A stretch of 64,000 nt of DNA from Naegleria gruberi (lineage: Eukaryota): assembly GCA_000004985.1 (NCBI GenBank), contig GG738890.1. One strand, written 5' to 3'. Position numbers and translations under genes: made by a program. Shown here piece by piece: positions 9,666-57,694 of the stretch. The notes under the pieces are model-generated. The model searched no databases and was not told where the DNA came from. It saw only the letters and a list, made by a program, of their open reading frames with translations. Position 1 is the first letter of the stretch, and each line of letters starts with the position of its first letter.

Positions 9666-9738
9666 GGGGACTTGGCGCAGTCGGTAGCGCGTAGGTCTCA
9701 TAATCCTAAGGTCGTGAGTTCGATCCTCACAGTCCCCA
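9666..9738 (+). tRNA. tRNA-Met (anticodon CAT), elongator type
   Basis: Cloverleaf: acceptor GGGGACT/AGTCCCC, D-arm GCGC-AGTCGGTA-GCGC, anticodon loop CTCATAA, T-arm GTGAG-TTCGATC-CTCAC, 73 nt. Confidence 0.9.
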
Positions 9739-10267: not shown

Positions 10268-12142
10268 CTATCTTTCACAATAATCGGGGTCTATCACTTC
10301 CTCCAGGAGTTGTTGATTTGAATATTTGATATGGTAGAGTCTGCATTGATTATATTCTCGTTGTTGTAGAGCTTTCTTTGAAATGACATAGTTTAGCATG
10401 CTTTTACCATCAAGATGAACCAAGAGTAGAATGTCATTCTCTTTTGAACATCCTTTTTCTAATAGGGGTTTTGTAATTGGGCACCCAATGAAAGCATTAT
10501 CACTACTTATATTGTCAGAAAGAATGGTAAATAGATTTTTCTCATCAGGTAAATATTCAACAATATGGTTGATTCTATTTGGGAAATCAAAAGAAAAACA
10601 ACAAGTTTCAATCATCTTTGGAGTTATTTCAAATTTCGACGTCGGCATTTCTTCATAGTACTCAACCAAACATTCAGTGTAATCATAATTTGAGTAAAAA
10701 GCAATTCCACCTGTTGATGGGAACAAATAGGAGGTCAATAACCCTGAAAGTGTTCTACAGTCAATGAAACATGATAGTGTATAGCCCTCCTTTTCGTCTA
10801 ATTTGAAAATTCTGTGAAAAATTCGGTAGGAAAATGTTGAAAAGGTGTTGTAAATCAAGCAGAAGTGAAAAGTCTCTTTCATGATAGGTTTGGCAAGATC
10901 TGCAACTTCTTTAAACTCAAGCGAGTACGGCTTATTTAGAATAAAATTAGCTATTTTCAAATAGTGATAGAATCTAATCTTGAAAATATCAAACCAATTA
11001 GTTTCCTTTCGAACTATCTTGTGTCCGTATGCAGAGAAGAAATATGAATCGTTAGCTAGAATTTCATTAGCTATCATCGAATATTGATGAAACAGTGGGT
11101 TATTTTTGAGTGTGTAATAAGTCAGATATTTCCAAATTGAAGGATTTTTGACTATCAAGTAGTTCCAATATTTACAAACGAGCCTCATTCTTAGAATTGT
11201 CTCTAAAGTGTCAAAATGCTTCACCAACTCTTCATGAAGTTCAAAAGGAATGCTTCTCATTAAAAACCATTCGGGATCCAATTTTCTTTTCTTTGTACTT
11301 GACTCCAATTGCTCTTCTTCCTGTTGGGATGGTTCATTACTTTCCACAGATTGCAAATTAATTGATGGCATTAAGCCATCAATAGAAAATTCAGACAAAT
11401 CAGATAAATCCAAGCAAAGTGGAGAAAAATAGCCAATGCAGCGAAAGTGAAACGTTCCCACAAGTTCAGGATCGGTATGAATCGCAGCCGTCATACATTC
11501 CAACGTACATATACTATTGTTAACTGCATTCAATGTAAGTTCTATAATTTCAGCATTTAAATATTCAAAAATTCGATAAATATGTCTTGATAAAGTAAGC
11601 ATGTTCATTGAATTGTCGGTAATTTGAAAAAACGTTTCCAAGTAATCATGTAATTTGCCAATTTTCTCACTTAGATATATCCTTTCTCTCAATACTGCAT
11701 TCTTGGCATAAACTGACAACTCTCCTAATAAAAACCTGTCAACAGTCTCAAATAATGCATCCATCAAATTAGAATTCTTAGTTTTCAAATCTCTAGCCAA
11801 TAGTGATTCATTCTCCTTAGCACCTTCCACCATTCTCACATATCTATTCTCCATTTCCATCATTCTCTTTACTCCATAATCATACATTATTTCACCATAT
11901 TTTTCTTCATCCTTCAATACTAGGAATGGTTTTAAATTTAACAAGACAAGTATCATAGCCTGATGAGTATACAATGAAAGACGATCCATTATGATCGGAT
12001 CAAAATACAAAACACCACCACGATTGGACGATACTTGTTCAATGATGGTTTCAATACTTATGAAGGATCGGGTGAGATCGACAGATAGAAATTCACTAGG
12101 GAATGAACTAGTGGGAAGGAGTGATCTTTCTCGTTCTTTCAT
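10268..12142 (-). CDS. Hypothetical protein with an internal F-box-like motif
   Basis: IPFELHEELVKHFDTLETILRMRLVCKYWNYL lies mid-protein. The track start is TTG, so the start was moved to the aaaaaaaaATG at 12142. Confidence 0.5.
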   Translation of the reverse strand: MKERERSLLPTSSFPSEFLSVDLTRSFISIETIIEQVSSNRGGVLYFDPIIMDRLSLYTHQAMILVLLNLKPFLVLKDEEKYGEIMYDYGVKRMMEMENRYVRMVEGAKENESLLARDLKTKNSNLMDALFETVDRFLLGELSVYAKNAVLRERIYLSEKIGKLHDYLETFFQITDNSMNMLTLSRHIYRIFEYLNAEIIELTLNAVNNSICTLECMTAAIHTDPELVGTFHFRCIGYFSPLCLDLSDLSEFSIDGLMPSINLQSVESNEPSQQEEEQLESSTKKRKLDPEWFLMRSIPFELHEELVKHFDTLETILRMRLVCKYWNYLIVKNPSIWKYLTYYTLKNNPLFHQYSMIANEILANDSYFFSAYGHKIVRKETNWFDIFKIRFYHYLKIANFILNKPYSLEFKEVADLAKPIMKETFHFCLIYNTFSTFSYRIFHRIFKLDEKEGYTLSCFIDCRTLSGLLTSYLFPSTGGIAFYSNYDYTECLVEYYEEMPTSKFEITPKMIETCCFSFDFPNRINHIVEYLPDEKNLFTILSDNISSDNAFIGCPITKPLLEKGCSKENDILLLVHLDGKSMLNYVISKKALQQREYNQCRLYHIKYSNQQLLEEVIDPDYCER

Positions 12143-12241
12143 TTTTTTCCTATTTATTGTGTAAATCAATTCCGAAATTATTTAAATATATTAATATTCT
12201 AATATTTATTATTTACAATAAAACAAATTATTCAAAACAAA

Positions 12242-31310: not shown

Positions 31311-31401
31311 TGATGAGTGTGGGATTTGAACCCACGCCCTTGCGGAACACGGTATTAATCATACCTTAACGTGTCGTCTTAGACCACTCGACCAACTCAC
31401 C
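31311..31401 (-). tRNA. tRNA-Leu (anticodon AAG), type II with long variable arm, containing an 11-nt intron 3' of the anticodon
   Basis: Acceptor GGTGAGT/ACTCATC, D-arm GTC-GAGTGGTCTAA-GAC, anticodon stem ACACG/CGTGT, loop TTAAGG[tatgattaata]C, variable arm TCCGCAAGGGC, T-arm GTGGG-TTCAAAT-CCCAC. Confidence 0.8.
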
Positions 31402-43424: not shown

Positions 43425-43475
43425 GATGCAACAAGGGTTGAAGTGATTGATATTTCACAATTTAAGATAGTGAAT
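43425..43475 (+). promoter_or_regulatory. Conserved 5S upstream element, copy 1
   Basis: ttcagaaatcag...gaagtgattgatatttcacaatttaagatagtgaatgg shares about 45 of 52 nt with the flank of the second 5S gene. Confidence 0.35.
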
Positions 43476-43595
43476 GGCTACGGCCATATCACGATGAATG
43501 CACCTCATCCCGTCCGATTTGAGAAGTTAAGCATCGTCGAGCCACATCAGTACTGAGGTTGGAGACAACTTGGGAACCTGTGGTGCTGTAGTCTT
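43476..43595 (+). rRNA. 5S rRNA gene, copy 1
   Basis: GGCTACGGCCATATCAC...CCGTCCGATTTGAGAAGTTAAGCATCG...GTACTGAGGTTGGAGACAACTTGGGAACCTGTGGTGCTGTAGTC followed by TTTTT. Matches eukaryotic 5S helices I-V. 120 nt. Confidence 0.9.
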
Positions 43596-48730: not shown

Positions 48731-49759
48731 TTACCAATATCTACTTCTTGTCTCCTGTGTGGGCAATACCTTCCTCAACACAAATAATGAATATAGGAAA
48801 GGGAATTCCAATTTTTCAATAGAATCAAACTTGCTACTGAGCTCGAAATATTGAACTCTGCAATCAATCAAATCTATTCCTCCGTACAAGTAGAATTCTG
48901 GTATTATTTCTTCCAAATATTGAGTTATCATACTGTTGGTCACCTTTTTTTCCTTGTCACTCTTCATACCTACCAATCCAAGAAATCGATTCTTATCCAA
49001 TAGATATTCGTATAAATTCTTTTCTGCTTTCACCTTTTCAAAATAACTTATCATTTGTTTACAAATGTTAAATGATTCAATTGAGGAAACATCAAAACAA
49101 TAGAACAAAATGTTACACTGTTGCATTTGTCCTACGTTATATGGCACAAATCGATTTATGCCAGGAATCTTAATTAATTCAAGGTTATAATGTTCCGAGT
49201 AATCAAATCTAGTGGTCAGATAGTTAATTTGATTACTGAATCTTTTTATCCAAGTTGACTTTCCACAAGATCCGTATCCAGCAATTCCAATTTTAGGTTG
49301 TTTTTGTTCTCCCACTACCAACTGTCCACTTTTAATGGCTCCTCTGATTCTAGGAACAAGATTGTCATGAAAATGAACTAGGGCACTATGTACATTCAAT
49401 CTCATTGGTTTCAGTAGGCAATTTGGTTGTTTCCCTCTATTTTCTAACTGATCCTTCCACAAGAGTGGTTGAAATATCCAGTATTTAGCAAAATTCTTAC
49501 TCACTCTCATCAATTTGATAATATCTGAATTTGGCAAATATCTCATCACATTAATGACCAATTCATACGGTAGCATTCTCTCCATCAATGATTGATTATT
49601 TTCATTAAATACATTAGGATCATTTCTATCTAAATATTCACTCTCTTGATCCATTAATTCCAACTCTTCATAATCAATTTCGATCGGAATGATCTTCTCC
49701 AAATTTAAATCATCAAGAATGATTCTATTACTGGAAAGAGTTGTGTGTTGTTGACCCAT
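48731..49759 (-). CDS. F-box-like + P-loop small-GTPase-like fusion protein (N-terminal MGQ...)
   Basis: LPYELVINVMRYLPNSDIIKLMRVSKNF (F-box) followed by KIGIAGYGSCGKSTWI (G1 P-loop) and LVGMKSDK (G4-like). Confidence 0.55.
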   Translation of the reverse strand: MGQQHTTLSSNRIILDDLNLEKIIPIEIDYEELELMDQESEYLDRNDPNVFNENNQSLMERMLPYELVINVMRYLPNSDIIKLMRVSKNFAKYWIFQPLLWKDQLENRGKQPNCLLKPMRLNVHSALVHFHDNLVPRIRGAIKSGQLVVGEQKQPKIGIAGYGSCGKSTWIKRFSNQINYLTTRFDYSEHYNLELIKIPGINRFVPYNVGQMQQCNILFYCFDVSSIESFNICKQMISYFEKVKAEKNLYEYLLDKNRFLGLVGMKSDKEKKVTNSMITQYLEEIIPEFYLYGGIDLIDCRVQYFELSSKFDSIEKLEFPFLYSLFVLRKVLPTQETRSRYW

Positions 49760-50034
49760 TTTTTTAGTGTTGGTTGAGAGATTTGTTATTATTAGAAGAA
49801 GAATTTATATTCTTCTGTTGTGTGGATTAAAATGGTGAGAAGGTTAATTTGAGAGATTCTAATCTTGTTCCATTTTTTTTAATATTTAATTTTATTAAAT
49901 ATTATTTATAAGATTAAAAATGGAAGGATAAACCAAAATGTCTTCATAAGTCTCTTAAAAATACAAGATTCAAGAGGTTTTAGTGGGATTAATGTATTTT
50001 ATGAATTTTAAAGTGGAAGATAGATTAATGTGTC

Positions 50035-50160
50035 GGGGTCTTGGCGCAGTCGGTATTATTAATAGATTTTAGGGTAGGTAACGCTCTCAATCTACCTCAA
50101 CGTCGGTAGCGCGTAGGTCTCATAATCCTAAGGTCGTGAGTTCGATCCTCACAGACCCCA
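50035..50160 (+). tRNA. tRNA-Met(CAT) copy interrupted by a 53-nt insertion in the D-loop (50054..50106); probable pseudogene or non-canonical intron
   Basis: Apart from the insertion it is identical in arm structure to the copies at 9666 and 57622, and the acceptor GGGGTCT/AGACCCC equals copy 3. The insert is flanked by a duplicated GTCGG(TA) and contains a 5-6 bp hairpin (GGTAG...CTACC). Confidence 0.6.
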
Positions 50161-50320
50161 ACTTTTGCCCTTTCTTTTGCTTATTTTGCATCCTATCGAA
50201 CGATCATCACCATAGTTTGATCACCAATATCTTTACAAGCAAAGGGAGCAATTTCTAGCTGGTTTGTTTTGCTTGTGGTTAACGTTGATATTACAGTTGA
50301 GTAACAAACATAAAATAAAA

Positions 50321-52378
50321 ATGCTCAACAATGTTCATCATGTCGATCATCAAATATTGAACGAAATGGATGACTACTTTTCAAGAAGGAACAAACTCTT
50401 TGATCAATTCAAAGAAAAACGAAGAAGAGAATTGGGAAATAAAATCGGGAAGGAAATTACCATCACAATAGATAAAGATGTAGTGAAGGGGAAAGCCTTT
50501 GAAACGAGCCCATACAAAATAGCATCCGATCTTTCCAATGATCAATCTATGGATCATCTTATTGCCAAGATTAATGGTAAATTATGGGACATGAATAGAG
50601 AGTTGGAAGGAGATGGTCGATTGGAATTTTGTTCTGATTGGAATGATTTGGAGGTGAGGAGAGTTTTCAAGCGTAGTTCTGCATTTGTGTTGGGAGCAGC
50701 TGTGGAACAAGTATTCAAATGTTTGGTCAGTGGTGGAGCTGTACTTGAGGATGATTATGGCAAGGGAGGTTTCTTTTATGAGAATTTTATGGATGAAGTA
50801 GTTAGAAATAGCTCTATAAATGATCATTCGAAAATCAAGAAAGAAATAGAGAAGATCATTGAAGAAAAACACCCATTCGAAAGATTAATTGTGAGGAAAT
50901 ATGAAGCTCTTGAATTATTTGCAGGAAACAAATTCAAAATTGAGCTCTTGAATGAAAAGTTTAAAGATGACGATTTCCTTTGCGTTTATCGTTGTGGATG
51001 CTTCATAGATACCTCTGTCGGCCCACATTTGTTGCACACTGGACAAATAGCATCTTTTGAAATTATATCAAATACTCGATTTCTATCTGATACAAAGAGG
51101 GAAATTTTACGGTTTTATGGAATTTCGTTTCCAACTGTTCAATTAAAGGAAGAATGGAAAATAATGACCCAAAAACTCAAACTTTGTGACCACAAAAAGG
51201 TTGGAAAGGATCAAGAGCTGTGGTTCTTTCATCCACATGCCCCTGGAATGGTTTCACTCCTTCCTCACGGCAAGAGAATATGCAATTCTGTTCAATCTCA
51301 ATTACGAGAAGCTTATTGGAGGTATGGATTTGCAGAGGTTCAAAGCCCCATTGTTTTGAATAAGGATCTGTGGTATTATCAATCAGGTAGTAGGAATCAG
51401 TGGTGGCAACAATACAATTTCGCTCTGGAAATTGATAAGGAGTACTATATACTCAAACCATACAACAAACCTATTCACTGTATTATGTATCGGAACAAAT
51501 CCAGATCTTATAGAGATCTACCAATTAGATATGTAGAATTTGGCTCAGTATTTCCGGATAACATCAAACCTTTTAGGCTGAATGGCAGGTTGAGAAGTTT
51601 CCAAAAAGATGAGTCAACCATTTTTTGCCAGTCAGACCAAACCAAAAAGGAAGTATTGAATTGTCTTCAAATGATGGGAAGTGTATATAACAAATTTGGA
51701 TTTGAATTCAAGATTGTATTTTCCACAAAACCTGTTAGTTTTTATGGTGACAATCTGGAATGGATCAAGTTGGAAGGTATATTGGAAACTGCCCTAAAAT
51801 CATTGGGTCATGAATGGGAAAGAGACGAAGGAGGGGCTCCTTCTCTCGGTCCAAGAATTGAGTTTTATGTTTCAGATAATTTGAAGAGGTTTATTTACCT
51901 TTGTGGAATAATTCAAATGGACTTAATGACACCACGTTTTTTCAATTTGACTTATACCAGTTCAGACAATTCTGCAGAATCAAAACCCATCTGCATCAGC
52001 AGTACCATCTTGAATAACACTGAAACTTTCATGGCTTTATCTGCTGAACGTTATGGTGGAAAGTGGCCTTTTTGGCTTTCTCCTAGACAAGCTATCATCA
52101 TTCCAATTTGTGAAAAGTGTAGTGAATATGCTAACAATGTTAAAGATAGAATTCATCAGGCTGGATACTATGTGGACGTGGATATGAGCTTTCATACGAT
52201 AGAAAAAAAGATTAGGAATGCTCATTTAGCTCAGTATAATTATATTTTAATAATTGGCGTCAGTGAGATGGAAACTGATTGCGTGAATGTAAGAATAAGA
52301 GATGGCGAACAAGAAGGAGTTAAATCTATTCAAGAATTATTGGAAGAATTCGAAGTTAAAATTAGGGAATTTAAATAA
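50321..52378 (+). CDS. Threonyl-tRNA synthetase (class II), possibly organellar
   Basis: TGS-like N-terminus. HKKVGKDQELWFFHPHAPGMV, FRLNGRLRSFQKDESTIFC and the anticodon-binding domain WPFWLSPRQAIIIPI match ThrRS motifs. The track start is TTG; the true start is the aaaaATG at 50321. Confidence 0.75.
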   Translation: MLNNVHHVDHQILNEMDDYFSRRNKLFDQFKEKRRRELGNKIGKEITITIDKDVVKGKAFETSPYKIASDLSNDQSMDHLIAKINGKLWDMNRELEGDGRLEFCSDWNDLEVRRVFKRSSAFVLGAAVEQVFKCLVSGGAVLEDDYGKGGFFYENFMDEVVRNSSINDHSKIKKEIEKIIEEKHPFERLIVRKYEALELFAGNKFKIELLNEKFKDDDFLCVYRCGCFIDTSVGPHLLHTGQIASFEIISNTRFLSDTKREILRFYGISFPTVQLKEEWKIMTQKLKLCDHKKVGKDQELWFFHPHAPGMVSLLPHGKRICNSVQSQLREAYWRYGFAEVQSPIVLNKDLWYYQSGSRNQWWQQYNFALEIDKEYYILKPYNKPIHCIMYRNKSRSYRDLPIRYVEFGSVFPDNIKPFRLNGRLRSFQKDESTIFCQSDQTKKEVLNCLQMMGSVYNKFGFEFKIVFSTKPVSFYGDNLEWIKLEGILETALKSLGHEWERDEGGAPSLGPRIEFYVSDNLKRFIYLCGIIQMDLMTPRFFNLTYTSSDNSAESKPICISSTILNNTETFMALSAERYGGKWPFWLSPRQAIIIPICEKCSEYANNVKDRIHQAGYYVDVDMSFHTIEKKIRNAHLAQYNYILIIGVSEMETDCVNVRIRDGEQEGVKSIQELLEEFEVKIREFK

Positions 52379-53909: not shown

Positions 53910-55173
53910 TTAATAAACAGCTTCTCCAGCATAAACTTGATTCTCAATTCCACCCTCTCCTTGAGCAATTTTGAAATATCCAGACATTCCCCAATTTGGA
54001 CCCCATGAATTGGCAGCTAACCAATAATTAGAACCTCCCTCAACTCCAAATCCAATTAAGGCAACAGCATGTCCACCAAGAACTGTGTTTTCAATGTGTT
54101 TATAGACACCAGACTTGTAACTATAGAAAAACAAAATTAGAATATTTGAAAAACTATAATTCAACTCACCCTGTAAGATCCCTGTAGACTGTGAAACCAG
54201 CTTGTACGCTGCCATATGTCATGATTGCAGTCTTGATATTATTGATACCTGAAATATAAACAGTATTTTTGGCCTTATACTTGCTCATGGACATGGAAGC
54301 AATCTTGCATTGAGTTGGACAAGTTCCAGAGGAGAAGGTTCCTCTTCCACTAGCATATGGAATACAACTGTCAAGTGGTGTTCCAGTATTTTCCAAAAAT
54401 GTCCAAGAATATTTCAAATAACCTCCTTGACAGGCCTTATTCATTGTATCGCATTGAACTTGATATTCTGGTGAGAGGACAACATTGGTTTGACCATTGG
54501 TGGCAATGCACAATCTATGAGCCAATACATAATTTGCAGCTATTAGTTTTAAAAATTACCAAAAAGGAAATTTAAAATGTTGAAATTATAAAAAGTAGAG
54601 AAATTAATAAATGAAATTGTAAAACTTAAAAAACTTACAGAAAGCCCAACAAGCACCACATGTTTGTTGATCTCTAATTGCTGGAACGCATCCTTTCCAT
54701 TGAGTTCTTGCATCGAAATTCATTGGAATATCAATTCTTGTTTCAATATTTGCCATTCTTGGAGTGTCTTCATCAGAGCTCATCAATGAAAGACCAAATA
54801 GATTATCTCTAAGTTGTGAAATGGTCATATTATCAAATCTAGAGTATTCAGTTGCCTTCCATCCATGAGTATGATTGGAATTAATTCTATCAATCAAAGA
54901 TTTGTCATTGACAGGAGTGTTGGCATGAGTGTGATTAGCAATTGGATGAGTTGGATGAACAGGATGAGTGCTATTGTGCTTTGGTGGCATTGGTTTCTTA
55001 TTGTTTCCTTTGGAAAGTTCAATTGGAGTGACCATTGTCAACATGAAGGTGAATAATACGAAACAGACAATGCAACTGAGAACAAGGAATGTATTAGAAG
55101 ACTTTCTTCTAGTAGTAGCAAATGATTTGTTTGAATTGTTATTCATTTTGTTTTTTGTTATTGATTCAAACAT
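53910..55173 (-). CDS. Cathepsin B-like cysteine protease with an N-terminal signal-anchor, 3 exons (55173..~54639, 54539..54170, 54120..53910; introns GTAAGT...AATAG of ~99 nt and GTGAGT...CTATAG of 49 nt)
   Basis: [10 protein letters not shown] (catalytic Cys), ...[13 protein letters not shown]...GGY, occluding-loop region, [11 protein letters not shown] (catalytic His), [14 protein letters not shown]. Exon junctions restore CWAF|S|ANYVL and RDLTG|YKSGVY. The printed sequence and ORF track differ by 1 nt near 54600, so junctions are +/-1. Confidence 0.75.
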
Positions 55174-56675: not shown

Positions 56676-56726
56676 TCAGAAATTTCAGGTGAAGTGATTA
56701 ATATTTCACAATTTAAGAAAGAGAAT
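56676..56726 (+). promoter_or_regulatory. Conserved 5S upstream element, copy 2
   Basis: ttcagaaatttcaggtgaagtgattaatatttcacaatttaagaaagagaatgg. Confidence 0.35.
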
Positions 56727-56846
56727 GGCTACGGCCATATCACGATGAATGCACCTCATCCCGTCCGATTTGAGAAGTTAAGCATCGTCGAGCCACATCA
56801 GTACTGAGGTTGGAGACAACTTGGGAACCTGTGGTGCTGTAGTCTT
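56727..56846 (+). rRNA. 5S rRNA gene, copy 2
   Basis: Identical to 43476..43595 over 120 nt, followed by TTTT. Confidence 0.9.
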
Positions 56847-57011
56847 TTACTTATCAATATTGCTTATTGGTCAATCGTCCAGTTGCTTCTCTCATTCTTT
56901 CCATTATTCCAAACAAAGTGTTAACCACTGATAAAACTGCTCCATCATCAATAATGATCAATTAAGATTTGCTACATGTTCAAAATAAATGACATTATTA
57001 TTTATTAAAAT

Positions 57012-57019
57012 ACCACAAA
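57012..57019 (+). promoter_or_regulatory. DUSE-like motif about 70 nt upstream of U2
   Basis: TACCACAAA, compared with the dictyostelid upstream sequence element [AT]CCCA[CT]AA, which sits about 60 nt upstream of ncRNA genes. One mismatch. Confidence 0.3.
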
Positions 57020-57087
57020 CATTTTGCCATTCTTCACTCTAGAACAAACAGAATAAAAACAATGTTCCTTATGCAATTCTGAAAACC

Positions 57088-57274
57088 ATCTTTCTCGGCC
57101 AATTGGCTTTGATCGAGTGTAGTATCTGTTCTTTTCAGTTTAATAGCTGAAAGCAGCCCACGGGTTGCATTACTATTAACTCAATTTTTTGTAGGGATCA
57201 GGGTTTGAGCTTGATTGCTCACTTTGATTGGTTTCAATCAGACATTGCACAAACCGTCAGATTAGGAGCCACCC
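57088..57274 (+). ncRNA. U2 spliceosomal snRNA
   Basis: AUCUUUCUCGGCCAAUUGGCUUUGAUCGAGUGUAGUAUCUGUUCUUUUCAGUUUAAUAGCUGA... aligns to metazoan U2 (AUCGCUUCUCGGCCUUUUGGCUAAGAUCAAGUGUAGUAUCUGUUCUUAUCAGUUUAAUAUCUGA), including the branch-point-pairing GUAGUA. Sm site AAUUUUUUGUAGG. 3' end ...GGAGCCACCC. 187 nt. Confidence 0.85.
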
Positions 57275-57621
57275 AACTCTTTTAATTAATTGAAAAATCA
57301 TTGAACAAAGACAATCTCAATCAGAGTAAAATTGAGCTTTTTACAAATTCCGAGCATGTATGATGACGAAGATATAGTAAGCATGCTGAGGGACTCAAAA
57401 CAGTCATTGATTGGTGTTGATATTGAACAATTTCTTGTCGACATTTGAATGCAGTTGGCAAGTGCGAAAAGGAAAATGAGAAGTGGAACGATTTCAAGAA
57501 TGAATTATTTGATTAATTGAAAGTAGAAACAATTAGGAAATTGATGTTGTTTTTTGTTCTCCTTCATAACATAACTATTGGGATTAGCAACACTTAAAAG
57601 CTATTGAGAGGATGCAAAAGT

Positions 57622-57694
57622 TGGGGTCTGTGAGGATCGAACTCACGACCTTAGGATTATGAGACCTACGCGCTACCGACTGCGCCAAGACCCC
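57622..57694 (-). tRNA. tRNA-Met (anticodon CAT), elongator type
   Basis: Reverse complement gives GGGGTCT-TG-GCGC-AGTCGGTA-GCGC-G-TAGGT-CTCATAA-TCCTA-AGGTC-GTGAG-TTCGATC-CTCAC-AGACCCC-A. Confidence 0.9.

What the first reader, a model, noticed from the sequence alone, without database searches (positions are those of the whole stretch)
50035..50160. tRNA-Met gene split by a 53-nt D-loop insertion flanked by a GTCGG(TA) duplication
Three tRNA-Met(CAT) genes are present. Copy 2 is identical to the others except for 53 nt inserted after D-loop position AGTCGG, with the 7-nt GTCGGTA repeated at both junctions and an internal hairpin. This is either a footprint or mini-insertion of a tRNA-targeting element, a slippage duplication, or a non-canonical-position tRNA intron. 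It lies 160 nt upstream of the ThrRS gene.
Basis: seen in the sequence. Interest (0 to 1): 0.5.

Follow-up and report, generated by a model that had tools for sequence, protein, structure and literature searches.

The report
Insertion-disrupted tRNA-Met gene copy
One of three methionine tRNA genes in this stretch of Naegleria gruberi DNA has been broken by a 46-base piece of foreign DNA that duplicated 7 bases of the gene on entry; it is most likely a dead spare copy in a genome reported to carry about 900 tRNA genes, not an unusual tRNA intron.

Summary
Window 50035-50160 (+) is an elongator tRNA-Met(CAU) gene identical to the intact copy at 57622-57694 (-), apart from 53 extra bases in the D-loop. 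These are a 46-nt unique core (50056-50101) plus a second copy of GTCGGTA (tRNA positions 15-21). The window is Naegleria gruberi nuclear DNA.

The core resembles neither the tRNA nor anything else in the 64 kb, so slippage duplication is rejected.

The intron reading gains no support:
- No bulge-helix-bulge motif forms. The only 4-bp central helix comes from the duplicated 7-mer pairing with itself and appears with every shuffled core.
- The insert carries a TTTT run. TTTT is the first T-run after 5 of the 7 Pol III genes here, and none of the other six has one internally.
- The only spliced tRNA in the window has an ordinary 11-nt intron at 37/38.

An exact 7-bp target-site duplication and a 6-bp inverted repeat exactly 7 nt from each core end (p about 0.007, chosen post hoc) point to a transposition-type insertion. 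The closest precedent is Dada transposons, but membership is untested. The decisive copy count needs the whole genome, which these tools could not reach.

Verdict: real feature, probably a disrupted gene copy, low interest.

The parts
50035..50048 (+). tRNA-Met(CAU) positions 1-14: acceptor 5' strand, U8, G9, D-stem 5' strand, A14. The A-box TGGCGCAGTCGG runs on into the next part.
   Evidence: identical to the intact copy at 57622-57694.
50049..50055 (+). First copy of the 7-nt duplication GTCGGTA (tRNA D-loop positions 15-21).
50056..50101 (+). 46-nt unique inserted core, TTATTAATAGATTTTAGGGTAGGTAACGCTCTCAATCTACCTCAAC.
   Evidence: Single copy in the window. No significant similarity to the tRNA. 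No exact match in metagenome, viral or prokaryote collections. No match in E. coli genomes or plasmids.
50063..50068 (+). Left arm (TAGATT) of the sub-terminal inverted repeat, 7 nt from the left end of the core.
50089..50094 (+). Right arm (AATCTA) of the sub-terminal inverted repeat, 7 nt from the right end of the core.
   Evidence: A symmetric inverted repeat of 6 nt or more occurs in 0.6-0.7% of shuffled cores or random window 46-mers.
50067..50070 (+). TTTT run inside the insert (gene positions 33-36), a likely premature Pol III termination signal.
   Evidence: TTTT is the first T-run after 5 of the 7 Pol III genes in the window, and none of the other six has an internal T4.
50072..50097 (+). 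Alternative 8-bp hairpin within the core: GGGTAGGT (50072-50079) pairs with ATCTACCT (50090-50097).
   Evidence: core folded alone, -8.1 kcal/mol.
50102..50108 (+). Second copy of the 7-nt duplication GTCGGTA.
50109..50160 (+). tRNA-Met positions 22-73: D-stem 3' strand, anticodon arm with CAT, variable loop, T arm with B-box, acceptor 3' strand, discriminator A.
50163..50166 (+). TTTT terminator of the gene. The trailer ACTTTTGC is shared with the 57622 copy.
57622..57694 (-). Intact paralog (the empty site). It is identical over all 73 nt and shares 9 nt of leader and 8 nt of trailer.
9666..9738 (+). Second intact tRNA-Met(CAU) copy, also with an empty site. It differs by a compensatory change at pair 5:69.

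Best explanation
This is a copy of the Naegleria gruberi elongator tRNA-Met(CAU) gene that suffered a DNA-level insertion in its D-loop.

Shown:
- 46 bp of unrelated DNA sits between two copies of the 7-bp gene segment GTCGGTA (tRNA positions 15-21).
- Everything else equals an intact paralog 7.5 kb away.

Inferred mechanism:
- A staggered 7-nt cut was made at the D-loop, a short DNA segment was joined in, and the overhangs were filled in. This is the signature of transposase-, integrase- or target-primed-type integration.
- The inserted segment is most likely the remnant of a small mobile element, either an internally deleted or miniature derivative. It has a 6-bp inverted repeat exactly 7 nt from each end but no terminal inverted repeats.

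Inferred consequence:
- The A-box is intact and the B-box lies 53 bp further away, so Pol III can probably still initiate.
- The transcript would meet TTTT at nucleotides 33-36.
- Any read-through transcript has a 61-nt D-loop and no recognisable splice motif.
- The copy therefore yields little or no functional tRNA.
- The loss is tolerated because identical genes are nearby and the genome is reported to hold about 924 tDNAs.
- Identity of the exons to the paralog suggests the event is recent.
For: - Exact 53-nt insertion and exact 7-nt duplication.
- Both other copies in the window have empty sites.
- The core is unrelated to the tRNA on either strand and to the rest of the window.
- A symmetric sub-terminal inverted repeat TAGATT/AATCTA lies 7 nt from each core end. 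This is found in only 120 of 20000 shuffled cores and 138 of 20000 random window 46-mers.
- No strict BHB forms in any of the 8 equivalent excision registers.
- The single 4-bp central helix appears with 5000 of 5000 shuffled cores and at 26 of 54 alternative TSD positions. The real core does worse than the 22% of shuffles that add a flanking helix.
- The strict BHB geometry costs 6.7 kcal/mol relative to the best cloverleaf-compatible fold.
- The insert has an internal T4, whereas T4 is the first T-run after 5 of the 7 Pol III genes and is absent inside the other six.
- The window's spliced tRNA-Leu(AAG) has a normal 11-nt intron at 37/38.
- ARAGORN and Rfam do not recognise the copy.
- 924 tDNAs are reported for N. 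gruberi (PMC2888827).
- There is precedent for DNA transposons that insert inside tRNA genes with 6-7 bp TSDs, lack terminal inverted repeats and have sub-terminal inverted repeats, including in a protist (PMC3706591; PMC8869645).
- The core is not E. coli or plasmid DNA.
Against: - Only one copy of the core was found, so nothing shows that it is or was mobile.
- Exact-match scans of metagenome, viral and prokaryote collections gave nothing.
- No transposase or reverse transcriptase is encoded among the 32 ORFs scanned against Pfam, which include all ORFs of 200 aa or more apart from one nested inside a longer ORF.
- 46 bp is very short for a non-autonomous element, and it has no terminal inverted repeats.
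- The inverted-repeat symmetry was noticed post hoc.
- The exons show no decay (73 of 73 identical to the paralog). That is equally expected for a functional gene.
- That T4 suffices to terminate Naegleria Pol III is inferred from gene trailers and has not been measured.
Confidence: 0.65

Rival explanations
1. Repair accident rather than a mobile element. A staggered double-strand break in the D-loop region was filled in and sealed with a captured 46-bp piece of unrelated DNA, for example mitochondrial or other genomic filler. The functional consequence is the same: a disrupted gene copy.
For: The core is single-copy everywhere it could be searched. It has no terminal inverted repeats and no coding capacity. 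No transposase was found in the window.
Against: A clean, exact 7-bp duplication is more typical of enzyme-made staggered cuts by transposases or integrases than of random breaks. The symmetric sub-terminal inverted repeat has a chance of about 0.007. No donor sequence lies within 64 kb.
Confidence: 0.2
2. A functional tRNA intron at a non-canonical position (21/22), as in Cyanidioschyzon merolae or archaea. The splicing endonuclease would remove it using the UCGG/UCGG helix between the two GUCGGUA copies as the central helix of a relaxed bulge-helix-bulge-like motif.
For: - Excision in any of 8 registers restores a perfect tRNA.
- In register 21/22 a 4-bp helix places both cut sites 2 nt 3' of the helix, with UAU and UAG as potential 3-nt bulges.
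- This helix forms spontaneously when the cloverleaf is enforced, at -35.8 against an unconstrained -37.9 kcal/mol.
- The exons are undecayed.
- C. merolae has D-loop introns up to 69 nt with relaxed motifs (PMC3728597).
Against: - The flanking helices are 1 bp each where at least 2 are needed.
- The lowest-energy form has 2x2 and 9x8 internal loops, not bulges. The strict geometry is 6.7 kcal/mol worse.
- The helix is an automatic by-product of the duplicated 7-mer: it appears in 100% of shuffled cores and at 48% of alternative positions.
- The insert contains an internal TTTT. C. merolae intron-containing genes have no termination signal between their exon segments.
- Neither paralog in the window has the insert.
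- The window's spliced tRNA has an ordinary 11-nt intron at 37/38.
- The literature searches found no paper reporting non-canonical tRNA introns in Naegleria.
Confidence: 0.06
3. Replication slippage or tandem duplication of tRNA sequence that later diverged.
For: Direct repeats flank the insert. The insert length of 53 equals tRNA positions 15-67.
Against: Global and local alignments of the core to tRNA positions 22-67, to the whole tRNA and to its reverse complement score no better than 14-49% of shuffles (63%). Meanwhile the flanking exons are 100% conserved, which is incompatible with extreme divergence confined to the insert.
Confidence: 0.02
4. Assembly or cloning artefact in the reference genome.
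For: Only one assembly could be examined.
Against: The junctions are clean with an exact 7-bp duplication. The insert matches no E. coli genome or plasmid sequence. The composition is Naegleria-like.
Confidence: 0.03

Closest known systems
Dada DNA transposons (Kojima & Jurka 2013, PMC3706591; Kojima 2022, PMC8869645)
   Same: They insert inside multicopy small-RNA genes, including tRNA genes, and generate 6-7 bp target-site duplications. They lack terminal inverted repeats but carry short sub-terminal inverted repeats. They are found in genomes with very many tRNA genes, including the protist Perkinsus marinus, where the D-arm/A-box region is hit. TGGCGC, present at positions 8-13 of this tRNA, is a known fish Dada target.
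   Different: Known tRNA insertion sites are nucleotides 8-13 or the anticodon stem, not 15-21. Complete Dada elements are 4.7-11 kb with a DDE transposase, and the only internally deleted derivative described in the passages read retains about 1.8 kb of terminal sequence; here only 46 bp are present. [quoted passage not shown] Dada is not reported from Naegleria (0 mentions).
Ectopic (non-37/38) nuclear tRNA introns of Cyanidioschyzon merolae and non-canonical archaeal tRNA introns
   Same: An intervening sequence in the D-loop of comparable length (C. merolae 11-69 nt). Removing it restores a canonical tRNA.
   Different: Those introns carry hBHBh' or relaxed BHB motifs and no internal terminator. 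They occur in many genes of the genome, and C. merolae transcription does not depend on A/B-box spacing. Here the BHB is no better than chance, a T4 is present and only one of three paralogs is affected.
Ordinary insertion-disrupted tRNA pseudogenes in tRNA-rich eukaryotic genomes
   Same: One member of a highly redundant gene family is interrupted by a short insertion and is no longer recognised by tRNA finders.
   Different: The exons are still perfect, so the event is recent or the copy is homogenised by gene conversion.
5'-truncated non-LTR retrotransposon insertions (target-primed reverse transcription)
   Same: They can be very short, are flanked by target-site duplications of variable length, and lack terminal inverted repeats. 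On the minus strand the insert ends in the A-rich ...AAAATCTATTAATAA.
   Different: There is no poly-A or simple-repeat tail, no known parent element and no other copy. The symmetric inverted repeat is not expected for a LINE 3' end.

Membership tests
BHB-dependent tRNA intron (archaeal or C. merolae type) | Precise removal restores a canonical tRNA. | tested here: met
   All 8 registers give the 73-nt sequence identical to the 57622 copy. This is true of any insertion with a TSD, so it does not discriminate.
BHB-dependent tRNA intron (archaeal or C. merolae type) | hBHBh' or relaxed hBH/HBh' motif: a 4-bp central helix, 3-nt bulge(s) and flanking helices of at least 2 bp at the exon-intron junctions. 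| tested here: not met
   Only register 21/22 has the central helix, and its flanking helices are 1 bp each. The helix is produced by the duplicated 7-mer alone, since it appears in 5000 of 5000 shuffled cores. The strict geometry is 6.7 kcal/mol worse.
BHB-dependent tRNA intron (archaeal or C. merolae type) | No Pol III termination signal between the exon segments. | tested here: not met
   TTTT lies at 50067-50070. T4 is the first T-run after 5 of the 7 Pol III genes in the window.
BHB-dependent tRNA intron (archaeal or C. merolae type) | A spliced mature tRNA is produced from the locus. | not testable with these tools
   No RNA data are available. The product would also be identical to that of the paralog.
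Dada superfamily of DNA transposons | 6-7 bp target-site duplication. | tested here: met
   Exact 7-bp GTCGGTA at both junctions.
Dada superfamily of DNA transposons | Insertion at a family-specific site inside a multicopy small-RNA gene, recurring in several gene copies. | tested here: inconclusive
   The insertion is inside a multicopy tRNA gene, but only 1 of 3 copies in the window is occupied. The site, positions 15-21, differs from the known sites at 8-13 or the anticodon stem. The genome-wide count was not possible.
Dada superfamily of DNA transposons | No terminal inverted repeats, but short sub-terminal inverted repeats. | tested here: met
   TAGATT/AATCTA lies 7 nt from each end, with a chance of about 0.007. 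The termini TTATTAAT and CCTCAAC are not inverted repeats.
Dada superfamily of DNA transposons | [quoted passage not shown] | tested here: not met
   By direct reading, the gene has GGGTCT or GGTCTC at the corresponding distances, which does not match AATCTA or TAGATT.
Dada superfamily of DNA transposons | Dada-type DDE transposase (autonomous copy) in the genome. | not tested
   No transposase domain was found in the 32 ORFs scanned, which cover all of 200 aa or more except one nested ORF. A database search with a Perkinsus Dada transposase was considered and not run, because it was unlikely to be informative.
MITE (miniature inverted-repeat transposable element) | Terminal inverted repeats. 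| tested here: not met
   The core ends TTATTAATAG... and ...CTACCTCAAC are not complementary.
MITE (miniature inverted-repeat transposable element) | Many dispersed copies in the genome. | tested here: inconclusive
   One copy in 64 kb, allowing up to 3 mismatches and by blastn-short. The whole genome was not available.
Tandem or slippage duplication | The inserted sequence is a copy of adjacent sequence. | tested here: not met
   Alignment scores to the tRNA are no better than shuffles. There is no match nearby.

The most novel reading that the evidence does not exclude
The 46-bp core is the stub of an undescribed mobile element that targets the D-loop (positions 15-21) of tRNA genes in Heterolobosea. 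It could be a Dada-like lineage or a new one, and other N. gruberi tDNAs would carry full or miniature copies at the same site. Less likely, it is the first intron at a non-canonical position in a discoban nuclear tRNA gene, removed by a mechanism that does not need a proper bulge-helix-bulge.
Probability: 0.1. Interest if true: 0.55.

Novelty: new member of a known kind. Interest (0 to 1): 0.2.

Why it matters
As it stands this matters little. It is one defective copy of a highly redundant gene, and it shows that tRNA finders will silently drop such copies.

It would matter more if the same core, or other inserts with 7-bp duplications at D-loop positions 15-21, recurred in the N. gruberi tDNAs (924 reported). 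That would reveal a tRNA-gene-specific mobile element in a lineage where the literature searches here found none reported, with a new target site. Target-specific transposons are of interest for safe-harbour gene delivery.

If the insert were spliced, it would extend ectopic tRNA introns beyond red algae and nucleomorphs.

Tried and rejected
- **Slippage duplication.** Rejected by alignment against shuffles.
- **BHB intron.** I enumerated all 8 excision registers with strict and relaxed geometry, ran constrained folds and ran two null controls. Nothing was better than chance.
- **Insert pairing with the exons.** The MFE fold shows an 11-bp helix between the insert and the 3' strand of the anticodon stem plus the variable loop. 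The best core-tRNA duplex is not unusual: 113 of 1000 shuffles do as well.
- **Embedded small RNA.** A permissive Rfam scan of 49900-50300 found nothing beyond the partial tRNA and a noise hit. By eye, the core contains no C/D box motifs.
- **Other copies of the core.** None in the window at up to 3 mismatches or by blastn-short. Exact-match scans of metagenome contigs (core, and an interrupted-tRNA pattern), viral contigs and prokaryote genomes were all empty. These scans say little, because Naegleria is barely represented in those collections.
- **Cloning contamination.** No E. coli or plasmid match.
- **Fetching more N. gruberi DNA or other assemblies.** Three proteins of the window are not in the contig index.
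- **Orthologous locus.** The nearest ThrRS relative, from Willaertia magna at 46% identity, sits in a non-syntenic locus without any tRNA gene.
- **Transposase in the window.** None among the 32 ORFs scanned, which cover all of 200 aa or more except one nested ORF.
- **Literature.** No paper on interrupted tRNA genes, non-canonical tRNA introns or Dada elements in Naegleria.
- **Dada transposase search.** I retrieved Dada transposase sequences from the paper's supplement but did not spend a whole-database protein search on them. A positive result was unlikely and a negative one uninformative.

Full report
**Source of the window**

The window has 29-41% G+C. It carries a U2 snRNA, two 5S rRNA genes and eukaryote-type tRNA genes. 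The 685-aa reading frame at 50321-52378 is 100% identical to the NCBI 'predicted protein [Naegleria gruberi]' threonine-tRNA ligase P0001. The window is therefore N. gruberi nuclear DNA. The other large ORFs encode ordinary cellular proteins such as P450, GMP synthase, GST and Nsp1-like nucleoporin. No transposase or reverse transcriptase appears among the 32 ORFs scanned against Pfam, which include all ORFs of 200 aa or more apart from one nested inside a longer ORF.

**The observation**

ARAGORN and Rfam call tRNA-Met(CAT) at 9666-9738 (+) and 57622-57694 (-). Neither calls anything at 50035-50160. Alignment shows that 50035-50160 equals the 57622 copy over all 73 nt apart from one block of 53 extra bases.

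GTCGGTA (tRNA positions 15-21) is present at 50049-50055 and at 50102-50108, so the insertion point is ambiguous over 8 registers. The non-redundant inserted DNA is the 46-nt core at 50056-50101. The bases just outside the two 7-mers differ, so the duplication is exactly 7 nt. The 9666 copy differs by a compensatory A-T/T-A swap at pair 5:69.

The copies at 50035 and 57622 also share 9 nt of leader (TAATGTGTC) and 8 nt of trailer (ACTTTTGC), but nothing beyond. The tRNA has the U31-U39 mismatch and the CUCAUAA loop, which I recognise from my own knowledge as features of eukaryotic elongator tRNA-Met.

**Is the insert a duplicate of local sequence?**

No. Local and global alignments of the core to the tRNA, to tRNA positions 22-67 and to the reverse complement score no better than 14-63% of shuffled cores. 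Within 64 kb the core has no second copy at up to 3 mismatches. blastn-short finds only AT-rich 10-14-mers. Slippage or tandem duplication is rejected.

**Is it an intron?**

For each of the 8 equivalent registers I tested the bulge-helix-bulge geometry: the 4 nt upstream of each 3-nt bulge pair with each other, and the cuts fall after the second bulge base.

- Only register 21/22 gives a 4-bp central helix: UCGG/UCGG, two G-C and two G-U pairs, with potential bulges UAU and UAG. Both flanking helices are 1 bp long.
- When the cloverleaf is enforced, this helix does form (-35.8 kcal/mol against -37.9 unconstrained). It is then bounded by a 2x2 and a 9x8 internal loop, not by bulges.
- Forcing the strict geometry shifts the D-stem and costs 6.7 kcal/mol.
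- Controls show that the helix carries no information. It is made entirely by the duplicated 7-mer, so it appears with 5000 of 5000 shuffled cores. A 7-nt duplication placed at other positions of this tRNA gives such a helix in 26 of 54 cases. The real core does worse than the 22% of shuffled cores that add a flanking helix of at least 2 bp.
- The insert contains TTTT at 50067-50070. TTTT is the first T-run after 5 of the 7 Pol III genes in the window. One 5S gene has a T5 run counting the last base of the gene, the Leu gene has T6, and none of the other six Pol III genes has an internal T4.
- In Cyanidioschyzon merolae, the eukaryote with proven D-loop tRNA introns (11-69 nt), the junctions form BHB-type motifs and no termination signal lies between the exon segments (PMC3728597).
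- The only intron-containing tRNA in this window, tRNA-Leu(AAG) at 31311-31401, has an ordinary 11-nt intron at 37/38.
- The literature searches found no paper on non-canonical tRNA introns in Naegleria.

The intron reading thus has no positive support beyond the trivial fact that excision restores the tRNA. I keep it at about 6%.

**What the anatomy suggests instead**

A foreign segment flanked by an exact 7-bp duplication of the target is the signature of integration at a staggered cut. The core has no terminal inverted repeats. It does have a 6-bp inverted repeat, TAGATT (50063-50068) and AATCTA (50089-50094), placed exactly 7 nt from each end. That symmetry is found in 0.6% of shuffled cores and 0.7% of random window 46-mers. 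The feature was noticed after the fact, so the p-value should be read leniently.

The closest described system is the Dada superfamily. These are DDE transposons that insert at fixed sites inside U6, U1, 5S and tRNA genes and make 6-7 bp duplications. They lack terminal inverted repeats but carry sub-terminal ones. They thrive in genomes with very many small-RNA genes, including the protist Perkinsus marinus (PMC3706591; PMC8869645). N. gruberi is reported to have 924 tDNAs (PMC2888827).

The differences from Dada are real:
- Known Dada tRNA sites are nucleotides 8-13 or the anticodon stem, not 15-21.
- The extra copy of a sub-terminal repeat in the target gene, described for Dada-U6 and Dada-U1, is not present here.
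- Only 46 bp are present here, against complete elements of 4.7-11 kb.
- Dada has not been reported from Naegleria.

I therefore use Dada as the nearest analogue for how the insertion arose, not as a family assignment. A heavily 5'-truncated retroelement, or filler DNA captured at a staggered break, would leave the same picture.

**Consequence for the gene (inferred)**

The A-box TGGCGCAGTCGG is intact, and the B-box is intact but 53 bp further away. Initiation is therefore plausible. Transcripts would meet the internal T4 after about 36 nt. Any read-through RNA would have a 61-nt D-loop. The unconstrained fold pairs the insert with the anticodon-stem and variable-loop region rather than forming a cloverleaf, although that pairing is not statistically unusual. 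The copy is most likely non-functional. The exons are still perfect, which points to a recent event or to homogenisation by gene conversion.

**What could not be done**

The decisive test is the genome-wide copy number of the core and a survey of all tDNAs for inserts at positions 15-21. It needs the N. gruberi assembly, which the contig index does not hold.

- Exact-match scans of metagenome, viral and prokaryote collections were empty but have little power here.
- The nearest ThrRS locus, in Willaertia magna, is not syntenic and has no tRNA gene.
- A cloning artefact is unlikely: the core matches no E. coli genome or plasmid sequence.

**Verdict**

The feature is real and was correctly described. 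It is best explained as a recently insertion-disrupted tRNA-Met gene copy carrying a transposition-type 7-bp target duplication. It is probably a small mobile-element remnant, and very probably not an intron. Interest is low unless the genome-wide search shows the insert to be part of a family that targets tRNA genes.

Noticed in passing
window 56727-57694: Three different small-RNA genes lie within 1 kb: 5S rRNA (56727-56845 +), U2 snRNA (57086-57276 +) and tRNA-Met (57622-57694 -).
   Followed up: no
window 43436-43594 and 56687-56845: The two dispersed 5S rRNA genes are identical. They share about 38 nt of conserved sequence directly upstream (GTGAAGTGATTRATATTTCACAATTTAAGAWAGWGAAT), but their downstream flanks diverge right after the T-run. 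This suggests an upstream promoter element or a short duplicated unit.
   Followed up: partly
window 31311-31401 (-): ARAGORN's 'tRNA-???' with a 2-base anticodon is a tRNA-Leu(AAG) with an ordinary 11-nt intron (UAUGAUUAAUA) at position 37/38.
   Followed up: partly
window 50321-52378 (+): The threonyl-tRNA synthetase next to the tRNA gene is a divergent copy. Its TGS and tRNA_SAD (editing-associated) domains score below Pfam cut-offs (20.0 and 20.4 bits). Its closest non-self relative is only 46% identical (Willaertia magna). It may be a paralog with a degenerate N-terminal region.
   Followed up: no
window 9666-9738 vs 57622-57694: The two intact tRNA-Met copies differ only by a compensatory exchange at acceptor-stem pair 5:69 (A-T versus T-A).
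   Followed up: no
window: leaders of the tRNA genes at 9666, 31401, 46015, 50035 and 57694: All five tRNA genes have a TGT(A/G)(A/T)-like motif in the last 5-9 nt before position 1 (gatgtaa, tttgtaac, gagtgtaa, taatgtgtc twice). It may mark the Pol III start region.
   Followed up: no
window 53910-55173 (-): A papain-family cysteine protease (Peptidase_C1 with propeptide) is split over separate ORFs (53910-54215, 54604-55173). This implies spliceosomal introns in that gene.
   Followed up: no
window 48731-49759 (-) and 10268-12169 (-): Two F-box proteins are present. The one immediately upstream of the disrupted tRNA gene combines an F-box with a Ras-family GTPase-like domain.
   Followed up: no
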